A DNA stretch of 62,530 bases, filler included, from Catajapyx aquilonaris (taxonomy: Eukaryota), in NCBI GenBank assembly GCA_000934665.2. It is 2 parts of 2 records of this genome, joined end to end, with 100 filler letters (N's around TTAATTAATTAA, not from the genome) between each part and the next. Parts side by side here need not be neighbours in the genome. Positions count along the whole stretch, not along the records: positions 31,174 to 62,530 come from JYFJ02004588.1; 1 more part is not named here. One strand, given 5' to 3'. The notes beneath the pieces were generated by a model that worked only from the letters and a program-made list of their open reading frames with translations, was not told the DNA's origin and made no database searches. The position numbers and the translations under genes were made by a program. This document shows, piece after piece, positions 31,074 through 62,272 of this stretch; positions within the stretch are counted from its first letter, which is position 1; each line of letters opens with the position of its first letter.

Positions 31074-31173
31074 NNNNNNNNNNNNNNNNNNNNNNNNNNN
31101 NNNNNNNNNNNNNNNNNTTAATTAATTAANNNNNNNNNNNNNNNNNNNNNNNNNNNNNNNNNNNNNNNNNNNN
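31074..31173. other. 100-nt assembly gap with an artificial six-frame-stop linker
   Basis: 44 N + TTAATTAATTAA (31118-31129) + 44 N. Confidence 0.97.
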
Positions 31174-37100: not shown

Positions 37101-40100
37101 TTCGATTTGGGGGGAGATGGGGCTTGTTTTGTACGGGATCCCGGCAGATATTTTCATCAATTTTGGATGGAGGTGAATGGGAACTATTGTGCGGATACAA
37201 TAACAGGCGGTTCCGACTGGATATCTGCGTATTGTGTTATTCCGTTTTAAAAGGGTAAACAAGGTGAAAATCATTATTTAAAAAGCAACGACTGCAGAGC
37301 ATATTGACATGTGCTGCACCAAAATCAATTGAACGGTAATTATGCATATAAATCAAGTAATTGCAGTATTAATGTATAATCTCATAATTTCCAACTAATG
37401 TTTGGATCGTGTAATAAGCAACCCCAACAGGCCAACATGCTAACCCCCTCTGAGCGTGACCTCTCAGCGGTCACCATGGCCACTGGACACATACTCACAC
37501 AACCCCCTGTACACTCCTGCCCAAAAATCAAACCGTGTTCTCTCCCCCTCCCACAATAAGTATCGGCCATCGTGCTCTCTATTACACACACGTGACACGG
37601 AAGACTGAATCACCCTCCGATCACCTTCGTGACACAGAAAACGCGAGAGTATAGCACAAGAGAGCGATTGCTTCCAAAAGGGGTGGGTCTCATACCCAAC
37701 GGGGGCGGCCCCTGTTATTAAGCAGTCATGACACACGCAGACATGAAAAGGGGAGTTAGGTGTACCCAAAAAAGACTGCAGAATTTTTTGGGAGACCCCC
37801 CCTACCTCCCATTGTGGCAGGTTCTAGGAATGCGGCATGGCTTAATCCGTCAGCCCAAACTTTTGACGTTCACGATATAGCAGGTCTCTCTGTCTTTAAG
37901 GGATAATTTGGGCCCGATTGGGGAGGGGCCATATCCATTTACAACCCGATCGAGTGGTGGCCAGGCACTAACGTGTCATTACCTGCATGGCGATGCTAAA
38001 TCATATATAGAGAGGATACCGCATATCTGGTCATGTTTGTAAAATGTCACGATGTAACATTAAAGTTAATTACACCGGGCAGTATTCTGTTTGAGGGTGG
38101 TTTATTCCCCACTCGAATTAGTTAATGTCTTTGGATCATACATCAGTTGCACCATTAATCTGCATGATTTAGTGAAAATAACTGACAAGGTTCTGTGACT
38201 TTTCCTATGTGACTTTATAATATGAAGTGTTGACCAGTGCACCACCATGTCGACGGATCCTATTACTGCGGCTGTGTTGACTGTTCCGCACACTTTTATC
38301 TCCCGGTGCAGTTGAACTACCCCGGCAGTTAAAACTTAATCGATAAGGTCTCCTTCATCAAAAAATAATGTGACATGCCACGGCCTCTCCTCCGGAAGTT
38401 CAATCGCTGAGCCGACAAAAGACCAGAAGAAATTAAGGCCCAACCGATATACCGCGCGACAAATCACAAATTGAGCCGATAACTATATAGGTTTGAGTCC
38501 CCGTCGGACAGACGGCAGCACCGGCACTGTATATATAGTTCCTGTTTCATCTGTACGCCCAGTCCCTTCATTTGTCTCCCAGACAGCGGCTCATCAGGCT
38601 TGAAAATAACAAATGAAGAGACGCTAACAACGCAATCGGCCCAAATTAAACTTCCAACATTGGGGAGAGAAAAGCGACGCTGCTGCCCTCTCTCCAGTAC
38701 GTGGAACGAAAGATTCCTGCGCGTAACTCAACCGGACTGTTTCGCATCCTTTTTCCGCCATATGCCGTGCCATTAATGGCAAATGGCGCACTTTGGATGC
38801 GAATTTACTGCGGCGGAAATGATGTTGTGTCCCCCCATCATATTTCATGAAGTGGGAGGTGGGCCACCATTTTATGTCCGATGACACTGAACACGTTTTA
38901 ATATTCCCAATTATATGGCCTATTTTTTGTATGCTGGACAGGAGAGAGGCCACCAGGTGTGATCATGGTATTTTACGAACATTGAAACGGTTCAATTAGC
39001 GTATATAATAATGGTCATCAGCAACACAGATAAGCGGCAGGTTCAATGATTGAAGAGTGTGCCTTTTGTGGTTATTCTGCTGATTAATATGGAATGTCAA
39101 TTATTATCACCTCCTGAAGGTTGAATAGAAGCATACTATTCAATTAGAACCTAACTATTAAAAATTATAGGGCAGAAATAACTGGAACAGACGGTGTGCG
39201 TCGCATATTGCTAGCATTGACCATGAAAATAACTGCATGGTAAACACAGTGATTTTTACGACTCCGTACGCGGTTTTCCTAACATTGGACAGCCCTGAAA
39301 TCGCGTATCGCCTTTGGCTCGGTTCTCAAGGCAACAAGCATGCAAAAGGCAACAATACCCCAGGTAAATGGTCCGTGAAAGCGGAAATAACGTCTCCGAG
39401 TCTTAGCTATTAAAATAAAGTGTCTATCAGGGTTTAGGAGAAATCAATGGCTTTCCCGGACCCCGTGTGCTCTTAGCTCGCTGTCTTATCTCCTTTCGCT
39501 TTTCCTCGGCTCCTATACATGCTCAAGAGTTTGCTCCTGAGGGGGGATTCTGCGATGGCTCATCTTTTCCCATATCGAGCTCCCCCCATCCTTGAATACT
39601 ATAGGAATTAAAAAATGTGAGGAGGGGAGTAAAAATGAGGCAACTCTTCCTGCCAGGGCCCATGAAAAATGGCTCCTGATGGCGCACCAGAATTACCATT
39701 TCGTATTGGTTAATAACACCTAGTTGTTGGAAAAGCTGTTCCTCGTGAATGAAAATGAATGGAGCCGCGGTTTGGCACCAGGCTGGCCCTGCCTGTCATC
39801 TCCAGACTTGTTGCCAATCTGAGGATCTGTTGTCGGTTTTTAAAAATTGTCTGAACCAATTGCGTCCTGAAGCCTATTGCCCCGAGTCGGCCACAGGGCT
39901 CTATTTCTAGTCAAGGACCGCCAAACCAACCTCTCGGCGTCATGCCCGGAAATACCGTCGGCCTATTTGCTTTTACGGAGCCTAAGCAAAAATGGGTGCC
40001 AGCACGTGCCATTAATTGGGCCTCCCAGGTATTAAGTTAATTTGGCTCAGTGCCTAATCAAGACATTTCCGGAGCGGGTGTAGGCGAATCCTGCTTCTCA

Positions 40101-40375
40101 AGGCGCAGTGTTGGGTGTACATATGTCTGCCCTTTGAAAAACGTACTTGTGAGATTAATGGGGGTACGCGTAATTAAACTTTCAACACCACTCGAGTGCC
40201 ACTTCATTGCAAGGTAACATGCTGGTCACGAATTCCTGCCAGTAACCATCAGGGTCAGGTGTCTAACAAGAGCTGTATAGTAGTACGAAATGTGCGTTTG
40301 AAAGTTCTGACCAATGGATATGTGTGGTGTAATAAACAACGGCATGATTAGAATAAAAATACTGCGCCTACCGCA

Positions 40376-40381
40376 TTTATT
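40376..40381 (-). promoter_or_regulatory. Candidate polyadenylation signal of the 754-aa gene
   Basis: AATAAA on the minus strand, about 18 nt downstream of the TGA stop. Confidence 0.35.
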
Positions 40382-40398
40382 CCAGTGAGAAACATTGG

Positions 40399-42663
40399 TC
40401 AGACATAAGTCCCCCCGAAACACCCGCACCAGGGAAGAGTTGGAGGAACGTCCTTGTGTTTCTGGCATTGTCTCCTGCCCCCACTGCCCCTGCTGGCCAT
40501 GCTGACCCTGTCCGGATGGATCCCGTCGGGGTCCTCCACTGGTGTCGATGGAGTCGTGGTGCTGCTGGAGTCCACCCTGGAGGCCGTCTTCTTGTTCTTG
40601 TCCAGTCCAACCCCCAGCACCCGGGCAGGGTCCAAGGAGAAGCTCCTGCTCAGCACCCTGGAACGAGGTCTGGGTCGGTCGGCCTCAACGTCCGAACCAC
40701 CTCCGCCGGTGTGCTTGCGAAGAATCCCGTTGACCACTGGTGACGCGCTTCGTGACGGCTGCGGGCCTTGTCGACCCGGAAGACGGGCGTCGAAGTTGAC
40801 AGAGGTACGTGGGGTAGAGGCTGAGTTGGGACTTGTTGGGACGGTCGTGGTCGGGACAACAGGAGGAGCTGGAGTGGTTGGGGACAGCTGGTGGTGGCTG
40901 GCACTGACGGCCCTTTGAAGCGGGGCGTGACCTGGAGGACACTCTCGGCTGTTGCCCATAAGAGGCATGGCGCTTAGGGTGTGGTGCAAACGGGGTGGTT
41001 CGGTCCGGACTGGGGATGCAACAGGGGTTGTACCGGTCGGAGGTACTTGGAGGTTCACGTTCACCATGTGTCTCAACCCGAACGACTTTCCGATTTTTAT
41101 GCCTTCCTGTTGCTGCGGGTCCTCGCTCGGTTCGGTTTGGACTGCTTCATGGACCAGGGTCGGAGGTCTCCAGAAGGTGTCGAAGCTGCGTGGTACCTCC
41201 TCTGGAGACACTAACCGCAGAAGAAGCCGGTGTCCGTTCAGGTTGATGTAAGACGGAAGGTGCAGGTGGTCGAGTCCTCCTGTTGCGGTAGTTGGTTTCA
41301 ACCGCAACAACCGCTCGCCCGTGTCCACTCCACGGTACACTCGGTGCTCCACTGGCCCATCTATGACGCCCAGTGGCGCCATGAGGTTGCTGATGGCCGT
41401 GTCGTTCAAATGCGGAGGAACACCACCGAGGGCCAGAAACACTGCGGATGGCACCGACGCGTCCAGTAACGGCACCGACACTCCCCGTATGCACAACCCG
41501 CACTCCACAAGAGTCCGCAAGCAACCAGCACTCGCCAGAGATATGTAGCACACACCTGAGGCCACTCGGACACCGGTCACTTCTGTGAGAGTCCCCAGTT
41601 GTCGATGCAACTCATCGATCACCTCCGTGGCGACCAGGTCCGACAGCGCTGACGGAAGATGACTTAGGTGAAATATCAACGTGTACGGTTCCACACAATG
41701 CAGGCGCAGGTGCTCGTCCCTAGCCGAAAAGACGCTAAGTGCTCCGGAAGCTTCAGGCACCATCTCACTTCCCCGCCAGATATGCAAAGCGGGCTCGGAA
41801 GCGCCCAACATCACGCACGAGTTACGTCGCGGCGACGAATTGACCGCGCACCGCTGACAGGAATGATCGTTAATACCGTTGTCGCTCCGGACAGACGACC
41901 GTCGCTGCTGGAAGCCCATCGCCTGCGGGCCTGGCGAACTCCGTCGTCTTACCACAGTCTCGAACCGCTCACAACCCAGACCCAAGCTGCTGCTTCCACT
42001 CGAGTCGCGACTTATCACACCGGATATCCTCGCCGGATCCCAACACCCGGAGAACCCGCTGGTGGTGGTTTCGTCCGAAGTGGTCGCCACGTCGCACGTC
42101 GGAACCACTCTGCTGGTGGACGGAAACGGATACGGAAGCGGCTCCGGGCTCTCCTCGCGAAGGGACGCCTCTTCCGGCAGCACTATTTGTACGGTACGTT
42201 CCGGAGGGGGAATCGGCTGACCGCTGCTGGCCGCTGCTGCCAACGCTTCGTCCGTTTCTTCTCGAAGCGAGTTCAGCCCACCAAAGTCCTTGTGCAAATT
42301 TTCAAGGTTCTCAACGCTTGGTCGGCCACCGTCGACACGATTCTGCTCGTCCTCCGTCTCGTAGCTGGTCTCCTCCCGCTCTTCGTCATCGTCGTCGTCG
42401 TCGTCTCTGTCCAGCACGTCCGGTCGACGTCTCCTGGACGACATCTCATCCACATGCTCTCTCAAAGCCCACAACTCCCTCCGAAGACGGTCGTTCTCCC
42501 TCCTCATCTTCCGGTTGTCGCTCTGACCTCTCTCCACCTCCGCATTGATGTTCATGGTCCTCAATCGAAGCTCCTCGTTCTCGTAGATCATGCCCCGACT
42601 GGCCCTCTTGTCCAGCTTCCGATTGGGCTTGACGCTGGCCGCTTTCTTGCCTGCCCGCAACAT
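40399..42663 (-). CDS. Uncharacterized ~754-aa protein: N-terminal coiled coil, central LINE-ORF1/ZCCHC3-like RRM-type domain, Pro/Ser/Thr-rich disordered regions, C-terminal LPWCGCFGG motif
   Basis: An uninterrupted 2.27-kb ORF in a GC-elevated block, in a window where ORFs outside this locus are at most about 220 aa. First ATG at 42663, with an in-frame stop upstream at 42709-42711. Charged heptad segment at 42442-42591 and an ordered hydrophobic alpha/beta segment at about 41211-41688. Confidence 0.9.
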   Translation of the reverse strand: MLRAGKKAASVKPNRKLDKRASRGMIYENEELRLRTMNINAEVERGQSDNRKMRRENDRLRRELWALREHVDEMSSRRRRPDVLDRDDDDDDDEEREETSYETEDEQNRVDGGRPSVENLENLHKDFGGLNSLREETDEALAAAASSGQPIPPPERTVQIVLPEEASLREESPEPLPYPFPSTSRVVPTCDVATTSDETTTSGFSGCWDPARISGVISRDSSGSSSLGLGCERFETVVRRRSSPGPQAMGFQQRRSSVRSDNGINDHSCQRCAVNSSPRRNSCVMLGASEPALHIWRGSEMVPEASGALSVFSARDEHLRLHCVEPYTLIFHLSHLPSALSDLVATEVIDELHRQLGTLTEVTGVRVASGVCYISLASAGCLRTLVECGLCIRGVSVPLLDASVPSAVFLALGGVPPHLNDTAISNLMAPLGVIDGPVEHRVYRGVDTGERLLRLKPTTATGGLDHLHLPSYINLNGHRLLLRLVSPEEVPRSFDTFWRPPTLVHEAVQTEPSEDPQQQEGIKIGKSFGLRHMVNVNLQVPPTGTTPVASPVRTEPPRLHHTLSAMPLMGNSRECPPGHAPLQRAVSASHHQLSPTTPAPPVVPTTTVPTSPNSASTPRTSVNFDARLPGRQGPQPSRSASPVVNGILRKHTGGGGSDVEADRPRPRSRVLSRSFSLDPARVLGVGLDKNKKTASRVDSSSTTTPSTPVEDPDGIHPDRVSMASRGSGGRRQCQKHKDVPPTLPWCGCFGGTYV

Positions 42664-45600
42664 CTTGGGACACTCTGTTTGGACACCCAGCAGCAACCTT
42701 GGCCTCCACTACAATGGGAGGATCTTCAGCAGATGCACTTCCCAACATCCCGAAACGTGTCGAAATCCTCTCTGCACATGCCAGAGATAAGATGAACACC
42801 TTCCGGCGCAGATGGCCCCATCGCCTCAAGGCCACAGCATCCCACGCTTGTCTTTTGGTGAATTCCGCAAAAGGTGGACCCGTTCCTGACCTGGGTCGGG
42901 ACACCGCTCAGGGAAGAGCAGTCTTTTTCAGTAGCCAGCTGCCGAAAGACTGTCGTGCCTCTGGGCAGCAGCCAATAGCCTCCTCTTTTCTGGGCACCCC
43001 CCAAACTTTGCACCCCCCAGCACCCAGCCTCCTCCGACAAACCGCAGGGATAAATATTTACGCCAGGATCGGACTTTGGTGCTGTTGAAAGTGACGGGGG
43101 CGGATACAAACACCGGCGCCCCGGTTCGGCTTACATTGACCTGCTCGGGTCATCGTCATTGCAGTTTGCAGTAATTCAATCCTAGGTTTATCACTCTTCG
43201 GCCCGCCCGATATAAAGAGGGTAATATAAAAGGTGGACCCAGCTGTTGGCACAGGCCAATTCCATTGGGCATGAACCGACCTGATTTTCCAATTGGCAAA
43301 TCTCCGCAGTTCTCATGCCGGGAACGTGCAAAATGTGCCTCACGGCAACATCGCAACGTGCCAAAATTAGCCCCTTTGCATCTTTCCAGAGGAAGAAGGT
43401 AGAGTCCGCGAAAAAAATGGCATAGAGGGTTGAACCCTTTGGGCTCTGAGCCCATATGCACTACCAGACTCAATGGCCCCTTTTTCTGCTCCAATAAAAT
43501 GCGTTTCCAGAATAAATACGGGGATATAAAAAGAGTGCGTCCAAACAACCGGAATAAACGTGGACGAGGTTAGTGTTGCCAAAAAAAAAAAAATCTGACA
43601 TATTGCTTCGCTAAAGATATCCAGCAAGTACACATATACCGGCTACATAATGCTGTCCGCACGTGTGCATATTTCTGGTTCAATATTCTCCCCAGCATGT
43701 GAGCCAATTTTTGCTTTACAATTTTTTCCCATGCCGCATAAACTTTCCACGTTTTCTCTATGCAAATTTTCGGTTCACCTGCCCCGGATCTGCTGAATAA
43801 GCAAAAGGGGATTACAAAAAAGTGGCTTTGCACATTCCGTAGGGTACAACCAACTAAAGACTTCACCCAGTTGATGCGGCGGAAAGGAATTCTAGAAACA
43901 CCTACAAGCTACGTTCGGAATGGTCAAAGGATGTGGGGGCCATGAAATGGACAGGTATAGAGGCATCAAGTGTCGTACGAGTGACGGTTTCCGTCGTACC
44001 AGAATGTTTGGAAGCGTCATTTCAAAAGAAAGAAGACAGCGGTACCGTCACTTGTCGTGCGATTTTTGACACTTCTACACTCTTGTTTCCTTACCGCCTG
44101 ATGATCCTGATATTTTGTTACGTACCGTACTGTACAACGTTGCCACAATGAGGCGGGAAATATATTGAAGGGACAGTGGCATGTTTTTCTCCCGAGCCCT
44201 TTAATAATAATTGTTGGAGATTGCTGCCAGCTCGTTATATTGGTGTGGACAGGGGCAAAGTACTTTATGTCACCTGGGTTACACCAAGTTCGAGCTAAAA
44301 TTAGCCGAGTTACATAATTGACCGCATCCAACGACGACATCAAAGAATGATGAGACCTCGCCCTGACCTTAACTACACCACTCTCTATATACATACACCG
44401 ACGGCATGGTCTGACTAACTTCCAAGCTGCGTGGGCCTCAGAATCGCCCAAGACCGCCTTTGAGCAAGTAAACTTTAATAAACACGACCGTCGATCAGCG
44501 GAAACTTTGCACCTGTGCCATGCAACGTAACGCCTGGATCTTCCATTTTGCACCTCGCAAACTACCAACCTCAGCGAATTTGGAAGCCAAGAATTTTGCC
44601 TGAGCTTATTTTGGCCAGGTGTAAAAAGGTTGAGATTTTGCAACCGAGCAATGTTTGAAAGGGGACCCCCCTGTAGCCATGGGGGGGGGGGGGGATCTAG
44701 GGGGGCTTAATTGGAATTCGGACGGGTTTAATGGGTTGGGTCGAGTGCGAACGAGGCTCCGGTTAAACGTGATTAACCGGGATAAATTAGTTGGCTGGAA
44801 GTTAATGAGGAACCAAGCGGGAGAGGTAAAGAGAAGCCCCCCTACATGCGGATCCTCGTCGCTACATTTCCTTCCCATAATATCAAACAATGTGGGGGGC
44901 GACATTTTTTGAAGGGTGACGTGGTGGGGGGGCTCTTTCAGGACTAATTGAATGGTCAGACATGCGGAAGTCATACCGGGAGACAGTGTCACAATTACAA
45001 AAGGCTGCTGGCTCTTGAATATTATTGACAACAAAATGTGTTGTCACACTGATAATGTACAGATATTCAACATAAGTAATGCAGAATTTATATTTCAGTT
45101 GAATTTTCAGCTGGACATTTGCATAATGGTTCCTGGCCAGAATAAACTCCGCAAAAGTTACTTTAATTAGGCAATATTGGCAATCGCTCCCATTCAAAAA
45201 CGGGCTCGTCGTAATTTCCGCGCATTAATTCACCGCTCCACAAAGGGCGAGCATCATCTGCTCAAAAACTCAAATATATTCCAGCACATCTGAAAGGTTC
45301 CCCCCAATATTATTTTTTATTCCAGTTCCGTTCGTGTCCGTGGTAATTTCATACTTTGTTCGAGGCATCAAATTAAATTCTGCCAAGGCAAGGTGTACAG
45401 ACGAATGGTTCGCATTTTTTTCATCTCTAAGCTTCGAGCCAATATTCAGCCGAGCAGGTCCGAAGCATTACTTTGCAGGCAACTGAGGCCTCAACAGCAA
45501 ATGTGCATCGATTGCCAACAGCTTCCAGAACTGAAGGAAAAAAGCTGAGGCCGTTTGCCTGTGGTGAAAAAGTAGTGTGTATTTTTTTTTTCAATCCGAG

Positions 45601-46041
45601 GTTACGAAATTTGTTGGGAAGTTTGATCGCGTGTCTTGTCCATGTCCAGCATTTTTAGTGTTCACTAGAATTTTATGAACGCCATTGAAAATAGTTTCGC
45701 GGGACCTCCAAAAAATAAAAGTGTGACGAGATGGCCCCGGCAGGAACAATTTTGGGGTTGTCCTGCAGCACTCGTTAGGTGACCACAAACGCACGTAACT
45801 CCTGGGCGCAAAGCACCCAATTGAAAACACCGCATCCATCCCACTGATTACACACCCTCACATACGCTTCCCCCTCCCAACGACATGTGGATGGACCCGA
45901 CATGTCATTGCCTTTTCGGCACACTTCCACCTCATGGTCCTCCCAGTTGCTTTCATCACGTTGCATTAGCCGGATATACACCGGGAAATGCGGGTCCAAG
46001 TAGCGAACAAAATTATTCCACAGTACAACCTATGCATCCTA

Positions 46042-46151
46042 CACTGAAAACCTGGAGTGCATCATTTTATGCACTTCCACACCGATTGTATATCACACCT
46101 GTCACACTTTCAAGTTGGCAAATATGAATAATGCACCCCATGTTTTCAGTG
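46042..46151. mobile_element. CACTG-terminated MITE, 110 bp, TA-flanked
   Basis: 25-bp TIR CACTGAAAACCTGGAGTGCATCATT versus CACTGAAAACATGGGGTGCATTATT (3 mismatches), with TA on both sides. Confidence 0.75.
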
Positions 46152-49100
46152 TAAGTACTGACCCAGGCTAAACCGAGTATTCTCGTCTTATTCAAATAGC
46201 AACACGTAAAGTGCTGATGAATACGTGCGGTATCTCCTGAATGCTAATGGAAAAAACAGCGGGGGCTTATTAGATTTGCTGTTTCTAAGCCTATAACTTT
46301 TTTTCTCTCTCTCTTTCTTAAGTCGGTGGAACACTTTTTTAGTCTGATGCGAACTTATATGAGGCAGGCAGCTAATTCCCAGCTCGTTTATCTCCAAGGG
46401 AGTGCGAGCGGCTGGCGACGACCAATGAAGCGGGGAATCGCAATTTCACGCCTTTTCCTCCCTCCGGATGATGTCACTTTGACTAATGCTGCCTTATAGC
46501 ACCCCGTTATTCACTTTTATATGCATTTTCAATTACAACCAAGTAGAACAGAGTGGGTAGGACCGGGCAATTCCCCCATCCGGCACTCCCAGAAATCGGA
46601 TTCTCAATTCACGAATTTTATTTGCACGTGTTGTTAACGCCTGTGAAAATGAGGTCACACCCAGTGCAGAATTTTTTTGCGACCCTTTGCAAAAAAAAAC
46701 GTGTGTGAGGTGGGTTGGAAATGGGACGGGTTAATATCCCTGCCTAAAACCAATTTAACAACAAAACCGCTAGCATGTAAATCGCCTCAACCGCGGGTAT
46801 TACTGCGTAACTTTTTTTTTTCACACTCCCTCGGATCCTATCAGGCTGGCTGGTATTTATCACTAGAAAAGGGGGGTCGCCCTTTATAAAACGACACGTA
46901 CGGCGTTAAAATCCCCGCTGTTTTTCCCCCTAGTTTGATAAAAATTTGTGTGTATATATTCACGCACCCGACTGGAAACAATATTGCGTGGGAACCCTAT
47001 AGAGGCAGATTTCGTTTTCTCATAAAGTTTGTTGGAAGTTTCCACCCCCTGGAGGCCTGGGTGGTCCCCCTGCAGCTATGCCTTGTTTAGGGGAATAAAA
47101 CCGGAACTAGGAGCTGTTAGGTTCCGACTTCAAAGCCTCCGTCCACGGATGGCGAACCTCGAAGTGCCGTCCTCAAGCTCCACTTGTCTCGAATTAGAGT
47201 CAGGCAGTGGATTTTCCCCGACCAACTCTCGGCAGAGACTATGATGTCTCCGGGTTGCAATCTAACTCACCTATCGACATGTAAGGGCAGCCTTCCCTTT
47301 TGCTTTGAGGCGGATTCCAATCGGATCGGTAAATCGCGATGTAGTTGTGCAAACGTGATCCTTGGGGCTGAAGGAACTTGCTGGGGATGCTCCAACTTGA
47401 GGAGTCAAACTTTGAGCTTAAAACACAGTGTAAATTTTGAGGATTTAGTTGGGATTTGAGGTTGGAAAAAATTGGGAACTATGCATTTGCGGTTTTGCTT
47501 CTCTCCTGACAGAGTTGAGATCAGGAGAGAACTTTCTAAGCCTCATGATGGCTATTCGGTGTTCGGGATGTCCGCACGGTTATCTGCTGTAATTACAACT
47601 TGTACCGCAGCCATATGTAAAATTAAAGCTGGGCTTCGCGTGAGGGCCATGCGCATTGGAATCACAAACTTCACTGAATAATAACCGTACAATAAATTTC
47701 AAGGTATAATCATTGGAAATAGCCAGAATTTTCCTATAATTTTATTGCTGAGCTACCATCTGGCATACTTTTATGCTGCAATAGATGTGTTACTGCTAAA
47801 ATATGCCGAAAATGCAGCAAAATCTTTTTAAGATCTCATCCTTAATTATACCCTTCCTTCCAAGACATTCAGCTGTATATCCATAGTCAACATGGCAATG
47901 TCTATTCAAATTGCGCAGTGCAAACAGAAGAATCGCGAGTCAACAACGTAAAAGAAACAGCGTAATAATCGAAACCTCAGGAAAGTTCCTGGCCCCCTCT
48001 GATTCAGAAAATCCTCCCAAGTAAAGCTACAAGCAACCGTCTCTTTCGTTTCCTTCCTCTTTTTCTCTCTTCCCCCCGTGGGATGTAAATATTTGCCTGG
48101 AAAGAGGAGTCCATCAGAAAGGAGTTTTGGGAATGTGGGTCTGCCTTACTAGGAAACGGAAAAAAGGGGGCAAAGTATAGTCCCCAGGCGTCATCCTCGC
48201 GCAAAGGAAGCCTTTTCCTTTACCAGCCCAGCTCCTCAGACTCATTTATTGCTGGCCCCTAGGCTTTCCGCCCTAACTACATCCCTTCGGAGCCATGTCA
48301 TCTGCAGCCCTTCCCACCTCACCAACTCCTGTTTGCTCTTTCTCTCGACACCCATTGCCAACCTCTATCTCCTCCAGCTAGCTAGCTCTACCCCCCTTCC
48401 TCTCCCTTTCCCCCATCATCATCTCGCTCACATTCATTACCCTCCAGAGCAAGCTTCATATTCCTGGCTCACACCTTTGGGCTCAGAAACGGCCCGCAAT
48501 TTACGGCCCGCTGTGTAGGTACACAATCGAGTAGATATCAACTAGGTGGAGCAAGATTGAAAGGTTAATTCGGATTGTTGGGACACTGCCAGTTGTTAAA
48601 TTCAAATGGGAACAATTTTACAGGAGGTCAATTGCAGTTTTGAATGGCAATGGGCCATTAATTGAGTTGTAACTAGGGGATGACAAGTTGGCGCAATGTC
48701 ACATGGCAATCATTGTGGACTCTACAGGTGTTCTTCAGTTGAACTGAACCATAATTATTCCCAGTAACACGTCCAAATTCATTATTGTTTCAGAAGACGC
48801 CGTCATTAACTCCATTTCTTCAATGTTTACCCAGTTCCAGGCTGCATTTGCTTCATTTTGTTTTCGCAAAACCTAATTACAGCGCCGCAAGCCCCCATGA
48901 AATCATCCCACACAATTAGATCAAGGCAGGTGCATAAACTGACCGCAAAGCATGAACTTGCTCAGACTTTATTTGGGCCAGGCTGCAACACAGCCCATCT
49001 AAAATACCCTCGAGTAACCTTCGCTTAATGAAGTAAACAAAGAGCAGCCAGCTCGCTGCATAACAAAACAATGTACTGCAACGTCTATTGTGAGATTCAA

Positions 49101-50784
49101 GGTCATTTCCCCAGTATTTATCCTAACCTGTGCCGCAACCTACACACGTGAACACCGGTTGGACTAACCACCAGGCGCAAAAAGTCAGCAGTTTTACCAT
49201 CCTTTCTCATGCAGATGTTTCTTCCCACAAAAACTTGTCTTTTTTTCTTCGTCTTCCACACTTTGTGTCACTTGTGTTCGTTTTCGAGCCGGATGAATTC
49301 GTTACACAGTCCCCCAGAGAATTTTCCGGAGGAAGGGACATTCTGGGTGGAGGAAAAAAAAGCCATTTCAAAGCTTTGGACTCTTCCTTTGTGGCTCAAA
49401 AGTGCTCGGGTGGCAAATGAGTTTGGGGGGGCCGCCTATTAGACGCGAGAATCACTTCTTTTGTCGGTGTGAATAGACTATCTGAAGAAAAGGCGAGAAA
49501 GGATGGTAGAGAGAGAAAAAAAAGTGGTCTAAGAAGCTGATAAGGTCATGCGAGTATCGTGACATTTCTTCCTATCCAGATTTAGGACACCTTTCCGACC
49601 CGTCTCTGTGGTGTCATCAAGACCTTTTACGCTCCCTTTATACAAACCACAAGCCCCAGAGTGAGTGGCCCTTCCCGCAAACGCCACTTGCAGCTGCAAA
49701 TGGACATTTCGATTTCCACCCAGGCCCTCAAAAAGGAGTGTTATACCATCAGGGGTGGTCCTGTTGGGATGACTATATACACGATGTGGGACATGAACAA
49801 AATTCGTACGTTCTATGGAGTCATCTTCATAGTCGACTAATTTCCTCAAATGTGGTTTAGCTCCATGCATCACCACGTACCATTTGAGCAAGCAAACCGC
49901 CACATAAAGTGCATCCCACGACTGAGATATGATATTTAGACCCATCCCACCCGCACTCTGGAAATGCCCAATTTGCTAAGAGTTGCAATTTATGACCAAA
50001 TCCCCATTACATCCGACGTCGAGATGAGAGGTGGGGGGTAGTACGGAAAAGACAAGAAGAGAAGGAGAGAGGATGGATGCAATGAAACTAGAGCCATTTC
50101 GAAAATGAAATAAGGGACTGAAGAAAGAATAAAAACCCTGTTCCTGGCAGTGAATCAGAACCGTTTGTGGACATTGCAATTCAAATCAGCCACTTTTCCT
50201 TATGAAACGCTTCCCTGTTTTCTCACCCGCATAGTCCCCCCCTACTACACAGCAGCCATTTCCCAGCCCTGCTATATATGCACAGGGCCTCGACGTCCCT
50301 TGCCCAACACAGCAGATATATGCGTCCTCCAAAATGGAATTGTGCAGCCTACCCTGCCTGTGAAGGTCCTTTATATGGGGCCAGAGAGAGAGGAGAGGAA
50401 GAGCCTACAAGGGATACGGCACCACTTACCAGGCTCGCTTAGTGAATTAGATGTACCCGGGATGGAGCCGCATTTCCACCCCCCATCCAAGCCCGGGCCT
50501 AACTTTGCATCCAGGTTATGTTATTCTGGCATAATTATCTTAGTTGGAGGGTGACAGGGCTCGGCATCTTGGCACTCCCAAAATGACGATTTTAATCCTG
50601 ATTAGAGCGCTGACAACCCCTGAAGCTGGCACACTTGGCAATTAATTTGGGTGAAGTCCGTGGTTGCGATAGTGCGATAGTTTCCTGGGTGACACAATCG
50701 GAATGCCAAGAGACAGTACCTATACAGTAGTACGTATAATGGTGGGCTCTATAACAGACTGTACTTGTATAAAGTATAGAGCTG

Positions 50785-51135
50785 CACTCTAAAAATTACG
50801 AGTGTTTTTCTACTTGATTTGAGTGATTTTCGCTCTTATACTAGATTTTAATCTCATTCTTTTTGAGTGAATATCGCTCGACCACTGAAAATTTTCGCTC
50901 AAAATAAGCCGATTATCCACTCAGATTCGAGAGAAAAACAACTAAAATTTTTGTTAAATGGGTTTTATTCAATGAAATAGTATAGTCTCGCACTCATCTT
51001 CACTCCTTTCGAGCAATTTTCCATCACACGTTTTGAATAAATATTTGCGGAGTGAAATTCACTCAAAAAGAGCATTTCGCGAAATTGCTCATTTTTTGAG
51101 CAAAATTTTAGGGAGATTTCACTCAATTTTTTAAA
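50785..51135. mobile_element. Degenerate CACTCT-type non-autonomous element
   Basis: Starts CACTCTAAAAA. Repeated GAGTGA...TC(A/G)CTC motifs occur in both orientations, with a partial palindrome at about 50800-50943. The right end is uncertain. Confidence 0.45.
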
Positions 51136-54100
51136 GAAAGATATGAGCTGTAAACTGCCTGAGAAAAAAACTGTGAAGTGTGGCTGGCATGTAATTTTGG
51201 GCTCATTCTCCTCGAAACCCATAAATCAAACCTCTTTCACTTTCCTGAGGCTAAACCACCCCTGAAACCGAACCCTCTTTCGCTGATTCAACCTCAGCGA
51301 TGATCCCATAATTTAACGCCCCTGGGCCTCGGTTTTAATTCACTCCAAGTGCCCTCCTAGTTTTCCCAATATTCCAGCACAGCCCAGGCCCCACTGAAAT
51401 TTGGCGACATCGTTTGCGCTTCGTGTATAGACTATAGATGGTGGTGGTGGTGGTAGGGAGGTGTCGGGGACCCCCCTTCCTAAAGGGATTGTCCCTTGAA
51501 TCAGGAGATGAATACAAGACACGGTACTAAGCTTGGAAACATCGAGTCTCTATACCCGCCCTTCATTTTAGCCTGCTGGGAAATATGTTTTTAAAGCTTA
51601 CGCCTCATTAATGGCCACCGTATTTTTTAAGAATCCGGGGGGTTAAAGTGCATGGGGATAATTTGGTGTAAAACCAGGGATGTCCTGCTGAGAGAAGGGC
51701 ATGGCGTGCAGTCTTGTCACCAGGACTAGGTCCAATGTGGGTTGACATCTGTCCGCCCAGTTCATAAAGGAGGCTTTGGGTTGACAGAAAATGAGTTGGG
51801 TTGGGGGAGAATGGACCAAAGGGGGAGACCAGCAGGAAGGAAGGGGAGGGGGAGAAGTTTTACAGATAATTCTGATAAGTACAAGTACAAGGCCTGCTGG
51901 TGTTCCGGTGTAGCATATGTGCTACGTACATATGTTTAAATTTCTACAATGTGCTCACTCGTGCCATTTTTGCCACGAGTGTCCTGAACGACACCAATCC
52001 ATCAGTGGCGTCCTTCAGGTAGCAGCAGGTTCCAATAATAAACATAGCTTTAGGCACGTATATGTTTACCTTCTCACGCTTCTACAAAAAACAAGGAGCA
52101 CTTTGACGGAAAATTCCAGGCCGTCAGTCGTAGCCTTCAGGTGCATCCAAGTGGAGTCTTCACGCCAGAAATCCGCCGGAATAGAATTGGCGTGCCAAAA
52201 AAGTAGACAGGCTTGTGTGGATGGGTGGTGAGATCCTTCCAAAAAAATAGGAGCGTTAATCCCAAGGGTGCTGAGCTACCCTCCCTTGAATGGGTTAGAC
52301 CTACCGCAATGATTAAATCAAGCATTTTTTGGGGAGCTCTTTCAGTGGGCATCCCCCCTCTTGTGTATATGGAGAGGTGGAAATGTGGCAACTGGAATGG
52401 CACCCTACTGATGCAAAGGATGGGGGTCCAGGATAATCAAATTTTGGCAGAAGGACCACCGCGTGTTGGAAGGGATGGATGGACGCAGTGTTGCCGGGTT
52501 CGGATTAGTTTTGACCCTTCCTGTACGCTTCGTTTAACCGTCGTTGTGCTCCGGGGTTTTCCGGGGCCTAATAGCCTTTCTACCCCAATTGGCGCCAAAT
52601 ATATTTCAGGGAGGCTCTATCTTTTTTTGAGGGTTCATTCCATTAGGTGCTGGAGACACGATTTATTAAGTGAGGCTTTTTGTAGGAGTTTCAGGGGTTA
52701 ATGCCAGCTGGTTCGAGATGAAGCTGCCAGAGAGTGTCTAAGCACACGGTAATAATTAAGAGTGGCATGTTTAGGCAGTGTACAAGAGTGTCATTTATAT
52801 TCATTTCACACTCGGTGAGATTACGCCCCAATGGCAGCCCTTGAGTTATCTGAAAGGTTTTAACATATAAAAATATTAAACCAACTGTAAGTGGCGAATA
52901 CCTGCTCAAAATAATTTCATATGGTTAATTAAATTTCTGAATTACACTCTACGATAGATGGTCGCAAAGGACGTGCAGAAGTGTGCAAATTTAATAACAT
53001 AACAATGAACAGCTGAAAATATTTCGCGGTATAACACGTGCTTTCATAACAACAGCGGAGTGCAAAAGCCTCTTATGTGCACCGTATTATTTCCACAATT
53101 ATTCCCTTCATACCCAAAGCTGATTAGTGTCACCTCTCCTTAACAGACATGTGGTAAATTCCCATGAAATACAGCATTACGTGCCAAGTTCCTACCTCGA
53201 TCCGCATATAAATAAACGACGAGCCTCAAATAAATGTACTCAAAAATAACCACTTCGTCGACTGCAGTGCCTCAGGACTGCTTATCAATAAATCAGGCCG
53301 TTTTCCCTCCCAAAAATCAGGTTGAAAATGCGAGCATACGCTTCTAGTGCTAGAAGGCACATCACCGCCAGGCAAAAGTTGGGCGCATATTAAGTCACGT
53401 TTACCGCCTCATTTAAAAAGCCGGGGCTTCGGTCCGTGATGAGGCGTACGTCTCCCTGCCAGAGAGCTTGTCAAAATAAACAAATTACCGCCCAAGTTAC
53501 TCAAACCAGAACTCCGCCATGTTGCCACCTCATCCAAACCCAATCGAAAAATCCATCCCTGCCCAAGCCTTCCATTGTGGTCCTTCCTTCCAAGAAATTG
53601 CATCTTACCTTTCCTCTTTCCCCCTGGAGAATCGCGACTTCTTTGGTATAAAGGGGGGCCTAAAAGGCTGAAAAGAGGCCTCCGATGTGATGGGGCTTTG
53701 GGAGACACCCCTCAAAGGCCCATTTAACCATCCCTGGCGAGCATTACTCATCGCCACAAGGCCCTTCCTTGTGCCTTGCTTGGACCTGCTCCAGCAAACC
53801 CAGCCTCCCAACCCAGAGGATTGATTCTATCCCAGATGAGAACTGCAAAACCGTGTCGTTAATGACGCTGGGTTGCTCATAAATGTTTGCATTTTTTTAA
53901 GCAGGGAAAAACATGTTAGACTCCCACGTTTTATGTGCGTTTAAGTGAGGTTTTTGGCACCGAGCTGGAGCAGAGGCACGTGAGGCCTGGAAAATGTACG
54001 GTTTTGTCGCGCCTGGAATGAAAGCCGCTTATGTGTTCCATCCGCACGCTTTCAGCTCATAACTGCAACAAGGTGGGTCTGGGAAAGTAACGCTTCTCAT

Positions 54101-56328
54101 AAATACGTCTGTAGTTGAAAATTCCCGGTTGTAAAACACTTGGTGGCTTCAAAAATAGGTTCATGAAGAGTTGATCGCCATGGTCGCAGCCAAAAAAATT
54201 ACTATGAGACTATGAAAAAAATCGCTCAAATTTTAACCAAAAAAACTAAAGTGTGGGGTTGTAAACACATTGTGCAGTAATGCAATTTCAACAGGTTGCA
54301 TACCGTGCGAGTTTTTTGAGAGCAGCTCTAATGAATCGCTCTGGCTGAGTAAAATTTAATGCCCTCGCTGATAAGAATAGTTCATCACTTTAATTAATTG
54401 CAAGCCCCCCCGACAAAATTCGTTTGAATTACAGCCCGGCCGTAAAAATTCGCGTAAAATCCTGTTGACATGCAAACTTCTTTACGTCAACAGCTCCCCC
54501 TCGTAGTCATTCATATGCAAAGAACTGTTAGTCGCCATAAAAATCAAACTCAAGCCTGGTTCCTCCCCACCTATTAAAAAAAACTGCTTAAGAAAAAAAA
54601 AAGAAGTTTCCAATCTTTGATGGAAATAGATCCATCAGAAGTCAGACTCAATCAGGGCCTTGACGTCACTCTGGTTGTAATGACTGCAACCGGATCCTTT
54701 CCTCCGATTTGGACCGCTCATCTGTAACGTTCCCATAGAAACCAAGTCCCAGGGAACGTAAGAAAGAAGAAGCTTTAAAAAATTCATTTTTTTCTCACCC
54801 GCAGGACTCTTTAAATGGCGATGTGCATATAATGTTGGGGTCAATGGTCAAGTCCTTAAGGATTGCTCCTTATGAGTTTGGTCCACACCCTTTAGAAAAA
54901 CAAGATTAGAGAGAGGGGGAACAAGAAAAAGTGGAAAAAGACATGGCCTGGAGGCTCAAGAAGTATACTAATGGCCATGCACTTTAGTGACTTCCGGATC
55001 CGCCTTTTCTCCCCCCAAAAAAGATGTTCCTCGCATCGATTTGGGCCTCTCTCTTCCCCATCTTACAAAACCCATTTCCTCCTAGAATCTGTAAACTTGG
55101 GTCGTAAATCCCGGAAGTTGTGCCCTCCGGTCCTGCTCCTATGTACTGAGCAACGGGCACAATTTCCTGCTAAATACGTCACTACCGGTTTTGGAAGACA
55201 GGAGAGAAATGACTGGAAAAATCAGCATTTTTTCGCACTCTCAGAGGTGAAGGTTCAGCTTAAATGAATGCAATATCACGTTTCTGTAGCCTTAAAATAG
55301 TGCTGACATAAGTTAGTTTCATTGTTGAATCTTGGTGCATATTTCAGACTGAATATATTACACTGTAGTAGAAAAAGGTAGAGAAAGTCATCAAAAATGT
55401 ATGGAAAAAATCAGTGAAAATAATTTTCACAAGACATAGTCTGCAGTATGAATTATTAATTACAAAAAAAACATTTTCTTTTAATGAAACGCGTTTATTG
55501 CACATTTATCAACCGAAAAAAGGAAATGAACTTCTGATGATATTGTCCATAAATATTACCCTAGTTTAAAAGGATGCCTTATCACATTTTTTTTACAAAA
55601 ATCTGGGCGAGCCCCAAGTGAAGGTAACTTTTTGTTACATCCAACCCCTTCAATTTATGCACCCCGCACATGAAATTGAATGTACAGCATCCCCTCGCAG
55701 CCAACCAATCAGACTCATCCCTCCTCTGGACTTACGCATCTCATTGAAAACGAAATAGAGTGACATTTCCCAAGTGGGCTCGATTTTCCGCGTTTATGCA
55801 AATTTAAAGACCGTTACACTTAGTACGCAAATCGAGGACTTAAGGCCGTCAATCCCAGCTGAGAAAAGGCAGCCTACAAATAGGTGGAATGGTTGAGGCG
55901 GGCGTCGTTGCCAATCAATAAGCGGCGCCCAAGACGCTCGAGACGCCTCTTTCTGCTCCTCAATTTTTTTTGTGCTTTTTTTCTCTTTTTTATAGATGCT
56001 TCGGTTCGCCTTCGCCTGGCATGCAAATCAGCCGTGGATTTCTGCCTAAGTTACCAAGTCAGAGCCACCTTTGAACGCTGCTGTGGCCACACTTTGCTTC
56101 CGAAAAAACTTTCTTTCCGAGTGCCAACTTGGCGCTGGCTGCGACCAAATGACATGTGAATTATTGATGCGACACCTCACCTGCGGCGCTGATTAGGGCT
56201 AGGCTGACCACTGTCCACCACCCGACCATGGCGATGGCATCACTGGTTATGAGTCACTAATGATGACGGGGCCACTACCTGCCAGGTAAAAGCAACAAGT
56301 ATATAACATATTGATTGTAAGTATAAAG

Positions 56329-56498
56329 TACTCTCAAAAAACAATGTGCTAAAAACATGCAGAATTATTGTGTATTGCATTGTATAACATTAGATACATT
56401 TCTGTACACAAATTGTGTCTTCAACATACTAGTACGTGTACAAAGAATAATGCACACATGATGTGTATCAAATTTGCACACAATCCTTTTAGAGAGTA
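56329..56498. mobile_element. Degenerate MITE with ACTCTC termini
   Basis: TACTCTCAAAAA...TTTTAGAGAGTA with internal ACACA/TGTGT subrepeats. No clear TSD. Confidence 0.4.
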
Positions 56499-59400: not shown

Positions 59401-60899
59401 AGCTACGTACTACACGTCAAACTATGTTTCAGGCGCATCACTCGGGTAAACTTGGCATGACACGTCCCGTAGGATAGTTCAGCACTGTGTAGCAAATCAA
59501 GGCTCGTTTCCCACCGAGGGAGGGAGGAAGGGGAGAAATAATTATTTGTTATCCCTTAGAGGCTCTAATGGCACGTGGCAACTCCATGCCTCTTACCTAT
59601 CAATGCGTCCAGTTTAATTTGTCTATATAGTCAAATGGAGGGACTCCCTCCCTGCCATCCAGTGGCCCACATCAAATCCTACAGGAGTGTGCAATACCAG
59701 TGCCAAGTGAGGGATTGTTCACCCCAGCAACCGACTTACAGAAAAGCAATCAACTCGTAATTGTTGCTTCTGGTTAAGCTTGCCGCTGGGGCGAACAATC
59801 CGTAGTTCAACATGGGACGTGAGCAGTGCATTATTTGCCTATATTATTGGGAGTGTACGGCATGCTTGAAACCTGGAAATAATAATTATGTCCGTTCGCA
59901 ACGGGAGAAATGGAGCTGGAAACGTTTGTCTTCGGAAAGTTTCCTCGGAGACATTTGCTTTCACCTCCTGTCTTAATTTTTTATGCATTTCAGTATATAT
60001 ACTACCAAGAGCTGATACTATCCTATTCTTTGTTTCCTCCTTATTTTTCCGGCATGAGGTAACCGAGTGGCAAGGACACTGCGAGGATTCCTCAATTCGC
60101 CTTGTGTGCGCGGGTGCGCGGTCTTTCGACCGCAGCCCAGGACCAGGAAGCAAAGACGACATTTTAGTGTGTGAAATGCCATAAACATGGTCTCCTCCCC
60201 TCCACCACTTTATTCCCTATCGCACACATATGCTTCCGGACACGTGCATGAAAAATCCCCTGGCCGACTCTGCCAGCATCCCTGATCATTAAAGCCCCCT
60301 TAAACAAGGACTCACCGTCAGTAAAAAGCACACCCTCAACAAATAGTGAGCAAAAACACCATATAGCTAACGTGAATAGAATGATGTATCATTGTATCAT
60401 GCTGTCCTGGTGAACCTTTTAAATCAATCACGAGTAATGTTTCGATAACTACAGTAATACGGGCCTGTAAGTACTGCTGTACACATACATGTACACTAAC
60501 TTGTACAGTACGTAGTTGAGACGTGAACCGATAGCAGGCGCAGCAATGCATCGCGACTTCACATATACTCGGTAGACAGGGGAATATTCGGGAATATTCA
60601 TTCCTGCAACCGGTTGTGTGTTTTTCCTTCCTGTGACCTTAGCCTTGAGCTACATTAATGCACTATTACTGGCCGTATTTTACGCACGTAACAAGCTGCT
60701 GCTTCTGTTAAGGTTCCGTGAAGCAGTTTGAGACATCGTTGATCAAAAATTGGTAATCAACTGAGGTGGATATCCTGTAATATGGCTACACTGAGCGAGC
60801 CTTCCACTTGTAGGCTACTCAATATCCACGCACGGTACTGCACCAATATGATTAAAAGGTTCCCATACGTCCGCCTGATAATTATTACATTTCACCAAA

Positions 60900-61595
60900 G
60901 CACAGGGCGAGGTGGGTGCGGGGCCTAGGGCAAGAACTAAGTGCGGGGCATATTCTCAGGGAGTGAATTTATGAACAACACGAATTGCGTATCCCAAAAT
61001 TTAGTTGGCTGACTTTCTCTAATAACGTACAACCGAGGGGCGTATGCCGAAAATTTCCGGGTGCGGGGCTATAAGCAGTGGAGGGCGGGGAGCAAAAGCC
61101 CGCCGCAGGCGAAATTTTTTGGGGGGTTGAAGGTTACCCGAGCTTAGTTGAATGGGTGCGTATTGATGAAATCAGTAGCACTTTTTCCAAAAAATCATGA
61201 ATTAGTAATGAATAATTTGGATTTTTGGAAGCGCGGGGCCTGGCAGTAATTAGGGAGGGAGACCCCACTGAGGGAGAAGCAAGGGTGTACCTCGCTCAAG
61301 CCCTCGCTGCACTTATTATTATCGAAGGCGAAGGCTCGCACATCCACATGTTGTTATTAGATAACATAGTTTAGGTTGGGGAGTCCTTTTTACCAGACGT
61401 GTTCGTTTCAAGAATCTGGCATATGATGCAATAAGGATTTTTTATTTGTTGATTTTTAAATTTTTTTAGTAGGACCAGGTAGGACAGTGAAAGAATGCGG
61501 GGATGTCTAAGTTTTGTACAATTATTCCGTAAGTTGCCCGTTGTCTTCCCAAGCGCGAGGCCTTCCCAGCGCGGGGCCTGGGGCAGGGGCCTATA
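60900..61595. mobile_element. Probable hAT-like non-autonomous relic
   Basis: About six dispersed GCGGGGC(CT) motifs (~60918, 60943, 61062, 61232, 61555, 61570), plus AGGGGCGTA and CCCGCCGCAGGCGAAATTTT motifs. Termini are unresolved. Confidence 0.35.
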
Positions 61596-62267: not shown

Positions 62268-62272
62268 TCAGT
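62268..62272 (+). promoter_or_regulatory. Candidate arthropod initiator (TCAGT)
   Basis: TCAGT begins 56 nt upstream of the ATG at 62324. Confidence 0.3.

What the first reader, a model, noticed from the sequence alone, without database searches (positions are those of the whole stretch)
41211..41688. Candidate domesticated LINE ORF1 (ZCCHC3-like RRM) module inside a host gene
Seen: the only ordered domain of the 754-aa protein ends in FLALGGVPPHLNDTAISNLMAPLGVIDGPVEHRVYRGVDTGERLLRLKP...GGLDHLHLPSYINLNGHRLLLR, preceded by another ~80-aa alpha/beta unit. Knowledge (recalled pattern, not a search result): V.gVP..l.D..I...L..yG.V......y.G..TG.R...m.....lP..i.i.G.r is the RRM-type core that precedes the CCHC knuckles in L1/Tx1-type ORF1 proteins and in the domesticated protein ZCCHC3. 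Here no CX2CX4HX4C knuckle follows, there is no ORF2 (EN/RT) downstream, and no TSD or poly(A) tail is evident. Inference: this is an exapted retrotransposon ORF1 RNA-binding fold in an intact cellular gene, possibly an invertebrate counterpart of ZCCHC3 or L1TD1.
Basis: partly seen in the sequence, partly recalled or inferred. Interest (0 to 1): 0.75.

Follow-up and report, generated by a model that had tools for sequence, protein, structure and literature searches.

The report
Divergent double RRM in arthropod gene
The flagged stretch encodes two back-to-back RNA-recognition-motif folds in the middle of an intact, unnamed gene shared by many arthropods, and nothing found here shows that they were borrowed from a jumping gene.

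Summary
Window 40402-42663 (-) is one intact 754-codon ORF, and 41211-41688 encodes the quoted residues 326-484.

With an alignment of 46 sequences, AlphaFold2 folds residues 300-500 at mean pLDDT 84 into two alpha/beta units. Both match solved RRMs:
- Foldseek: tandem RRMs of HuR and hnRNP A1, E about 1e-6.
- Family profile against PDB sequences: RBMS1, E 2e-4.

The gene belongs to an unnamed arthropod family (Daphnia, springtail, cockroach, stick insect, Hemiptera, and more). Members share an N-terminal coiled coil and a C-terminal PWCGCWGNGC tail.

The LINE ORF1/ZCCHC3 reading is not established:
- Pfam RBD_ZCCHC3_2nd is the only recurring Pfam hit, but it is far below threshold (14.5 bits against 27; 2 of 46 members).
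- No CCHC knuckle occurs in 252 family proteins.
- No RT/EN domain is present in the window.
- The recalled motif matches the general RRM pattern.

Verdict: a divergent host tandem RRM; an ancient ORF1 origin is unproven, about 0.15.

The parts
40402..42663 (-). Complete single-ORF coding sequence, 754 codons (stop at 40399-40401)
   Evidence: The N-terminus MLRAGKK...KPNRKLDKRASRGM and the C-terminus LPWCGC... align with the first and last residues of homologues. GC is 60% against 45% for the window.
42244..42663 (-). Conserved N-terminal region (residues 1-140): a basic stretch, then a predicted coiled coil, then an acidic run
   Evidence: 201 proteins match at E<=0.001, with 42-80% identity to this part in the 120 listed rows. 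123 of 150 stored proteins match by phmmer. Only weak generic coiled-coil Pfam hits were found (DivIC in 17 of 46 members, Cnn_1N in 15 of 46). This part was not folded.
41446..41694 (-). RRM-fold unit 1 (residues about 324-406)
41194..41445 (-). RRM-fold unit 2 (residues about 407-490), the part that carries the quoted motif
41311..41337 (-). YRGVDTGER, the most conserved stretch (family consensus ERR.YKGVDTGER), on the long beta2-beta3 hairpin of unit 2
   Evidence: Conservation in A2: R of GER is invariant; E, R, Y, D and G are 90% or more. Strands at model residues 140-144 and 147-158.
41050..41088 (-). Short conserved motif KSFGLRHMVNVNL in the disordered tail (homologues: SFRS.L.V.L)
   Evidence: Seen by eye in the sequences; located. 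Not counted across the family.
40714..40731 (-). Short conserved motif NGILRK in the disordered tail
   Evidence: The pattern NG[IV]LR[KR] occurs in 20 of 252 stored family proteins.
40402..40437 (-). C-terminal Cys-rich end LPWCGCFGGTYV, a divergent copy of the family's terminal PWCGCWGNGC plus one residue
   Evidence: The terminal pattern occurs in 150 of 252 stored proteins. The window copy keeps PWCGC only.
40376..40381 (-). AATAAA 18 nt after the stop codon, a possible polyadenylation signal (read from the sequence only)
   Evidence: No poly(A) tract follows.

Best explanation
The stretch encodes a divergent tandem pair of RRM folds. The pair forms the central module of an old, unnamed arthropod host gene, whose other conserved parts are an N-terminal basic/coiled-coil region, a long disordered Ser/Pro/Thr-rich tail with a few conserved short motifs, and a C-terminal Cys-rich end.

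Shown:
- The ORF is intact.
- The family is conserved across arthropods.
- Both units have the RRM fold.
- There is no knuckle and no RT/EN.

Inferred:
- The protein pairs through its coiled coil and uses the two RRM units to hold nucleic acid, most likely single-stranded RNA.
- The classical RNP1/RNP2 aromatic residues are missing. The best-kept surface is the charged beta2-beta3 hairpin ERR.YKGVDTGER of unit 2. Binding would therefore be non-canonical, as in quasi-RRMs, which use loops rather than the sheet (established knowledge of hnRNP F/H, recalled).
- The Cys-rich tail may tether the protein, for example by S-acylation. This is speculation.
- The evolutionary source of the RRM pair cannot be told from these data. 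A cellular RRM ancestor is the default.
For: ORF and coordinates:
-.

Family:
- 198 proteins match at E<=0.001 among 1.84 billion representatives. They match the N-terminal part, the central module, or both.
- Named members are all arthropods: Daphnia, Hemiptera, Periplaneta, Bacillus rossius and many Holometabola, plus the springtail Orchesella.
- One UniRef name reads 'RRM domain-containing protein' (Rhodnius).

Fold:
- AlphaFold2 with 46 sequences gives pLDDT 84.1.
- Foldseek finds 190 PDB matches at E<=0.001, the best being HuR RRM1-2 at 6.5e-7.

Sequence:
- The profile of 21 domain-only sequences hits 37 PDB sequences at E<=10. By name, 33 are RRM proteins, led by RBMS1 at 2e-4.

Non-canonical RNP positions:
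- Read from alignment A2. The aromatic RNP2 position holds A/L/I/V. RNP1 reads T-G-E-R-[LFY]-[VL]-R.

Not a transposon:
- CCHC is absent from 252 of 252 family proteins.
- No RT/EN family appears in the homologues scanned or in 112 window ORFs.
Against: - No canonical Pfam RRM model reaches threshold on any member. The best are RRM_7 at E 0.12 and RRM_occluded at E 0.18, one member each.
- The only Pfam family hit by more than one member is the ZCCHC3 second RNA-binding domain.
- The link between strand 3 and the last hairpin of unit 2, where RRMs have helix 2, is short. Only 10-14 residues lie between the R of GER and the conserved P in most homologues, against 18 in the window (A2). Unit 2 may therefore not be a complete RRM in most members.
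- Only the window protein was folded.
- RNA binding, dimerisation and lipidation are untested.
- Without aromatic RNP residues, the units could bind protein instead of RNA.
Confidence: 0.65

Rival explanations
1. Ancient exaptation. The two RRM units descend from a type I LINE ORF1 protein (one or two RRMs directly upstream of CCHC knuckles). The element lost its knuckles and ORF2 and was captured by the host gene before the arthropod lineages sampled here split. It would be an invertebrate counterpart of ZCCHC3.
For: - PF23058 (RBD_ZCCHC3_2nd) is the only Pfam family matched by more than one member. The two matches share one register: profile position 7 falls two residues after the P of GVP in both P0003 and P0020, and P0003 covers profile 7-61 of 72 (best E 0.0057).
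- Type I ORF1 proteins often carry two RRMs, and in HMM-HMM searches these also hit ordinary tandem RRM structures (PMC4120745, passages read). So the structural matches to cellular RRMs do not argue against this reading.
- ESM Atlas leads to DUF4780 (0.82-0.83) and PRE_C2HC (0.76).
Against: - The scores are far below the curated cut-off (14.5 bits against 27).
- The two hits come from homologous sequences, so they count as one observation.
- An unrelated family (LEM) scored E 0.0072 in the same scan.
- No member hits the first ZCCHC3 domain model or Transposase_22; one search lists all 14 families found, and neither is among them.
- There are no knuckles in 252 of 252 proteins.
- The Atlas scores are under the 0.9 mark that the tool itself calls a lead only.
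- The shared motif is generic to RRMs (alignment).
- No direct comparison with ORF1 or ZCCHC3 sequences could be made, because none was available from a tool.
Confidence: 0.15
2. Protein-binding pseudo-RRMs. The two units keep the RRM fold but have lost nucleic-acid binding. They serve as protein-protein interaction modules, like UHM-type RRMs, within a coiled-coil scaffold protein.
For: - The aromatic RNP1/RNP2 residues are absent in both units (A2).
- Helix 2 of unit 2 is shortened in most homologues.
- The named holometabolan members keep both ends of the protein without the module. The protein's core role may therefore not need it.
Against: - The best structural matches of unit 2 are quasi-RRMs, which bind RNA without canonical RNP residues.
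- The conserved hairpin is rich in Arg and Lys (ERR.YKGVDTGER.VRLK).
Confidence: 0.18
3. Ordinary LINE remnant. The ORF is simply the ORF1 of a retrotransposon copy.
For: None beyond the RRM fold and the single-exon structure.
Against: - The whole ORF, from the first residues to the last, is collinear with one conserved arthropod protein family.
- Only 198 relatives were found in 1.84 billion representatives.
- There is no RT/EN in the window, no knuckle and no poly(A) tail.
Confidence: 0.01

Closest known systems
Quasi-RRMs of hnRNP F/H, Drosophila Glorund, GRSF1 and ESRP1
   Different: Sequence identity is only 11-19%. No qRRM appears among the 37 PDB sequence-profile hits. The rest of the protein architecture is unrelated.
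Canonical tandem RRM proteins (RBMS1/MSSP, ELAV/Hu, Sxl, hnRNP A1 UP1, U2AF65)
   Same: Two RRM folds lie back to back. They give the best Foldseek matches (E about 1e-6) and the best sequence-profile matches (RBMS1 2e-4; Hu, Sxl and U2AF65 0.07-0.8).
   Different: RNP1/RNP2 aromatics are missing. Pfam RRM_1 is not hit. The relative placement of the two domains differs (rmsd 8-17 A when both units are aligned). The two units show no detectable similarity to each other (hhalign probability 0.6%).
ZCCHC3 second RNA-binding domain (Pfam PF23058)
   Same: It is the only Pfam family matched by more than one member, in one register, over unit 2.
   Different: The match is sub-threshold (14.5 bits against 27). 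There is no match to a first ZCCHC3 domain model. There are no CCHC knuckles.
Type I LINE ORF1 proteins (Jockey, I, R1, some CR1/L2)
   Same: They have one or two RRMs in tandem that are very divergent in sequence (PMC4120745, passages read).
   Different: The defining knuckle directly after the RRMs is absent, there is no ORF2, and the module lies in the middle of a conserved host protein.
L1 ORF1p and its domesticated relative L1TD1 (Transposase_22, PF02994)
   Same: A coiled coil and an RRM occur in one protein.
   Different: No Transposase_22 hit appears in any Pfam scan. Here the coiled coil is separated from the RRMs by about 240 disordered residues. There is no CTD. L1 ORF1p does not appear in the rows shown by the three fold searches, which does not exclude it.

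Membership tests
RRM fold (RNA recognition motif superfamily) | Four-stranded antiparallel sheet packed on two helices, order beta-alpha-beta-beta-alpha-beta | tested here: met
RRM fold (RNA recognition motif superfamily) | RNP2 and RNP1 consensus with aromatic residues on strands 1 and 3 (consensus recalled) | tested here: not met
   Alignment A2. In unit 2, strand 1 reads [VI]-x-L-x-G-V-P with no aromatic residue, and strand 3 reads T-G-E-R-[LFY]-[VL]-R. This makes the module a non-canonical RRM.
RRM fold (RNA recognition motif superfamily) | Match to a curated RRM sequence model | tested here: inconclusive
   No Pfam RRM model reaches threshold (RRM_7 E 0.12, RRM_occluded E 0.18, one member each). 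The family profile does hit RBMS1 at E 2e-4 and 32 further RRM-named PDB sequences at E<=10.
Type I LINE ORF1p | CCHC zinc knuckle(s) immediately downstream of the RRM(s) (PMC4120745) | tested here: not met
   The regex C..C....H....C finds 0 in the window protein and 0 in 252 stored family proteins.
Type I LINE ORF1p | Linked ORF2 with endonuclease and reverse transcriptase | tested here: not met
   Of the window's 129 ORFs of 90 aa or more, 112 were scanned and none has an RT/EN hit. The 17 left out overlap the gene itself. No RT/EN family was found in the homologues scanned.
Type I LINE ORF1p | Many dispersed genomic copies | not testable with these tools
   No whole genome is held for this window. 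Indirectly, only 198 relatives were found in 1.84 billion representative proteins.
ZCCHC3 family | Pfam RBD_ZCCHC3_2nd (PF23058) at or above its gathering score of 27 bits | tested here: not met
   The window protein has no hit. The best homologues score 14.5 and 14.1 bits. The family is hit by 2 of 46 and 2 of 21 members.
ZCCHC3 family | First RNA-binding domain and C-terminal CCHC knuckles | tested here: not met
   No such family is among the 14 that one search lists in full. No knuckles were found.
L1 ORF1p / L1TD1 (Transposase_22) | Match to PF02994 or to solved L1 ORF1p | tested here: inconclusive
   No Pfam hit. L1 ORF1p is not among the 37 PDB profile hits or the rows shown by the fold searches. 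A family that is not listed is not excluded.

The most novel reading that the evidence does not exclude
The tandem RRM pair is what remains of a type I LINE ORF1 (two RRMs, knuckles lost). An arthropod gene for a coiled-coil protein with a Cys-rich tail captured it before crustaceans, springtails and insects split, and Holometabola later dropped it. This would be an invertebrate parallel to ZCCHC3, possibly acting on retroelement RNA.
Probability: 0.12. Interest if true: 0.6.

Novelty: new member of a known kind. Interest (0 to 1): 0.3.

Why it matters
The result turns an attractive domestication story into a testable question that stays open for now.

It also marks a widely conserved arthropod gene family that carries no informative name in the records seen. 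No Pfam model reaches threshold on any part of it. Its members have a coiled coil, a divergent double RRM and a nearly invariant PWCGCWGNGC end.

The family would be a reasonable target for RNAi or CLIP in Daphnia or a hemipteran. In the samples seen here the RRM module comes and goes between arthropod orders, so the family may show how an RNA-binding module is gained or shed from a scaffold protein.

As it stands, the finding is a divergent member of the commonest RNA-binding fold.

Tried and rejected
- Single-sequence searches were blank. Pfam on the whole protein and on the module gave nothing. phmmer against PDB gave a best E of 0.39. A word-index homologue search with residues 300-500 found none.
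- A single-sequence AlphaFold2 model was poor (pLDDT 49.6) and was not used.
- The profile of the full-length alignment A1 against PDB gave only acidic and coiled-coil noise.
- One search used a wrongly cut alignment that still held the N-terminus, so every protein 'matched'. I discarded it and redid the step.
- The last word-index search, with profile A2 and longer proteins, returned only 6 proteins, so the family's range outside the named taxa stays open.
- No whole genome is held, so there is no copy number, synteny or dN/dS.
- No RNA holder is listed for the gene. One run of unknown kind holds four short contigs (157-267 nt, no differences), all inside the CDS, and nothing else within 38500-45500. 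This is not usable as evidence of expression.
- L1 ORF1p, ZCCHC3 and other retroelement proteins do not appear in the rows shown by Foldseek or VIA-align. That does not exclude them.
- Paper searches found no paper that states an ORF1 origin of ZCCHC3 in the passages I read. None holds the C-terminal motif 'CGCWGNGC'. The query ZCCHC3 + 'RNA-binding domain' + AlphaFold gave 2 unrelated papers. No supplements were opened.
- Rfam and tRNA scans of the window found nothing.
- The earlier-findings index had nothing at this place or with this sequence.
Full report
**What is there**

The minus strand of the window carries one long open frame, 40399..42696. Its first ATG at 42663 gives a 754-residue protein. 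It is the only long frame in the window: of 21 stop-to-stop frames of 150 aa or more, the next longest outside this locus is 252 aa. The finding's coordinates 41211-41688 translate on the minus strand to 159 residues that contain the quoted string; these are residues 326-484. The coding sequence is 60% G+C against 45% for the window.

**It is a conserved host gene**

An exhaustive HMMER search of 1.84 billion representative proteins found 198 relatives at E<=0.001 and 16 at E<=1e-30. The hits match the N-terminal 1-140 residues, the central part at about 300-490, or both. The sequences also share an extreme C-terminal PWCGCWGNGC-type end (150 of 252 stored proteins). The window copy keeps only LPWCGC.

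A word-index search with residues 1-140 gave 201 proteins, of which 120 are listed. Every named one is an arthropod and is called 'uncharacterized' or given a spurious low-complexity name. One Rhodnius entry is named 'RRM domain-containing protein' by UniRef. A springtail (Orchesella) member turned up.

No Pfam model reaches threshold on any member scanned. There are only weak coiled-coil hits at the N-terminus.

**The module is two RRM folds**

With the 46-sequence alignment A1, AlphaFold2 gives residues 300-500 a mean pLDDT of 84.1 and pTM of 0.62. The single-sequence model was poor.

- Unit 1 (model residues 25-107) has the order beta-alpha-beta-beta-alpha-beta.
- Unit 2 (model residues 107-198) has beta1-alpha1, a long beta2-beta3 hairpin, two short helical turns of lower confidence, and a final hairpin.

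| Search | Result |
|---|---|
| Foldseek, PDB | 190 matches at E<=0.001, led by tandem RRMs (HuR 6.5e-7, hnRNP A1 UP1, raver1, NONO/SFPQ) |

For unit 2 the best matches are quasi-RRMs and DAZL:

For unit 1 the best matches are:

At the sequence level, a profile of 21 domain-only sequences (A2) hits 37 PDB sequences at E<=10. By name, 33 of them are RRM proteins, led by RBMS1 at E 2e-4. The two units have no detectable similarity to each other (hhalign probability 0.6%).

**The recalled motif is a general RRM pattern**

In the alignment, the family's '..L.GVP....D..v..ll..fG.vi' lies on RBMS1's RNP2 strand and helix 1. The stretch 'rr.ykgvdtgeR.vr' lies on RBMS1's 'RILRDSSGTSRGVGFARM', the beta2-loop-beta3 segment that carries RNP1. 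So the pattern that prompted the finding marks RRMs in general.

The family lacks the aromatic RNP residues. Its best-conserved stretch is the charged hairpin ERR.YKGVDTGER. In most homologues the segment that should hold helix 2 of unit 2 is short: 10-14 residues from the R of GER to the conserved P, against 18 in the window.

**Test of the LINE ORF1/ZCCHC3 reading**

For:
- Pfam holds a model named RBD_ZCCHC3_2nd (PF23058). It is the only family hit by more than one member, 2 of 46 whole proteins and 2 of 21 domain-only sequences.
- The hits fall on unit 2 in one register: P0003 residues 489-538 on profile 7-61 of 72, and P0020 residues 371-412 on profile 7-48.
- Type I LINE ORF1 proteins do carry one or two divergent RRMs, and in HMM-HMM searches these hit ordinary RRM structures (PMC4120745, passages read). 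Matches to cellular RRMs are therefore not evidence against an ORF1 origin.
- ESM Atlas gave leads under 0.9 to arthropod hypothetical clusters, RRM_1, DUF4780 and PRE_C2HC.

Against:
- The scores are 14.5 and 14.1 bits against a cut-off of 27.
- The two sequences are homologues of each other, so they count as one observation.
- An unrelated LEM hit scored E 0.0072 next to the best PF23058 E of 0.0057.
- The window protein itself hits nothing.
- No first-domain ZCCHC3 model or Transposase_22 is hit.
- No CCHC knuckle exists in the window protein or in any of 252 family proteins.
- No RT/EN domain lies in 112 scanned window ORFs or in the scanned homologues.
- No poly(A) run follows the gene.
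- The passages I read of the ZCCHC3 papers do not say that ZCCHC3 comes from a LINE ORF1.

I could not compare the module directly with ZCCHC3 or ORF1 sequences. That comparison remains the decisive missing test.

**Distribution of the module**

A corrected HMM of the module finds it in 64 of 251 stored family proteins (one search was a faulty first attempt). It is present in:
- Daphnia
- the springtail Orchesella
- Periplaneta
- Bacillus rossius
- eight named Hemiptera

It is not detected in any of the named beetle, wasp/bee/ant, moth, fly, caddisfly or thrips proteins. Those proteins keep both ends of the protein, and the best E with all filters off is 0.59.

A tree of the module places the unnamed module-bearing proteins with the Daphnia-like group or with Hemiptera and Polyneoptera. 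The window copy sits on a long, unresolved branch.

Caveat: one search sampled only proteins that have the N-terminus, so isoforms or split genes could have been missed. Some family proteins begin just before the module and lack the N-terminus.

**Mechanism**

Shown: an intact, conserved protein with a double RRM fold.

Inferred:
- It self-associates through a coiled coil.
- It binds single-stranded nucleic acid through a non-canonical surface centred on the basic hairpin of unit 2, as quasi-RRMs do.
- Its disordered tail carries short conserved motifs (KSFGLRHMVNVNL, NGILRK).
- Its Cys-rich end might be lipidated.

A protein-binding pseudo-RRM is a real alternative.

**Verdict**

The gene is a host gene and the module is RRM-type. 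The domestication claim rests on a sub-threshold match and a generic motif.

I rate the finding as a new, divergent member of a known fold family in an uncharacterised arthropod gene. Interest is about 0.3, and I put about 0.12-0.15 on an ancient ORF1 origin.

Noticed in passing
family proteins P0153-P0251 and others: The double-RRM module is detected in Daphnia, springtail, cockroach, stick insect and Hemiptera members. It is not detected in any named beetle, hymenopteran, lepidopteran, dipteran, caddisfly or thrips member, although these keep the N-terminal coiled coil and the C-terminal tail. This could be lineage loss, or isoforms that were not sampled.
   Followed up: partly
window 40402-40437 (-); C-termini of stored family proteins: A nearly invariant extreme C-terminal motif, PW[CF][GA]CWG..C plus one residue, occurs in 150 of 252 stored proteins. 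The window copy has diverged after PWCGC (LPWCGCFGGTYV). No paper holds the string CGCWGNGC. Its function is unknown; it may be an acylation site.
   Followed up: partly
P0019, P0022, P0023, P0030, P0035, P0054: Several family proteins start shortly before the RRM module and lack the N-terminal coiled coil. They may be partial gene models or products of an alternative start.
   Followed up: no
window 1-40000 and 43100-62530: The gene stands alone in about 62 kb. No other ORF of 90 aa or more has a Pfam hit at E<=0.001, apart from a low-complexity Apis_Csd match at 11105-11434 (-) that is below its cut-off. Rfam and tRNA scans found nothing.
   Followed up: partly
window 31074-31117 and 31130-31173: There are two 44-base runs of N (assembly gaps or masking) and four single Ns at 12882, 17123, 20627 and 34822.
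   Followed up: no
window 40544-42553: One public run of unknown kind holds four short contigs identical to the CDS and none in the 2-3 kb on either side. The run was found with the gene's own words, so this says little.
   Followed up: partly
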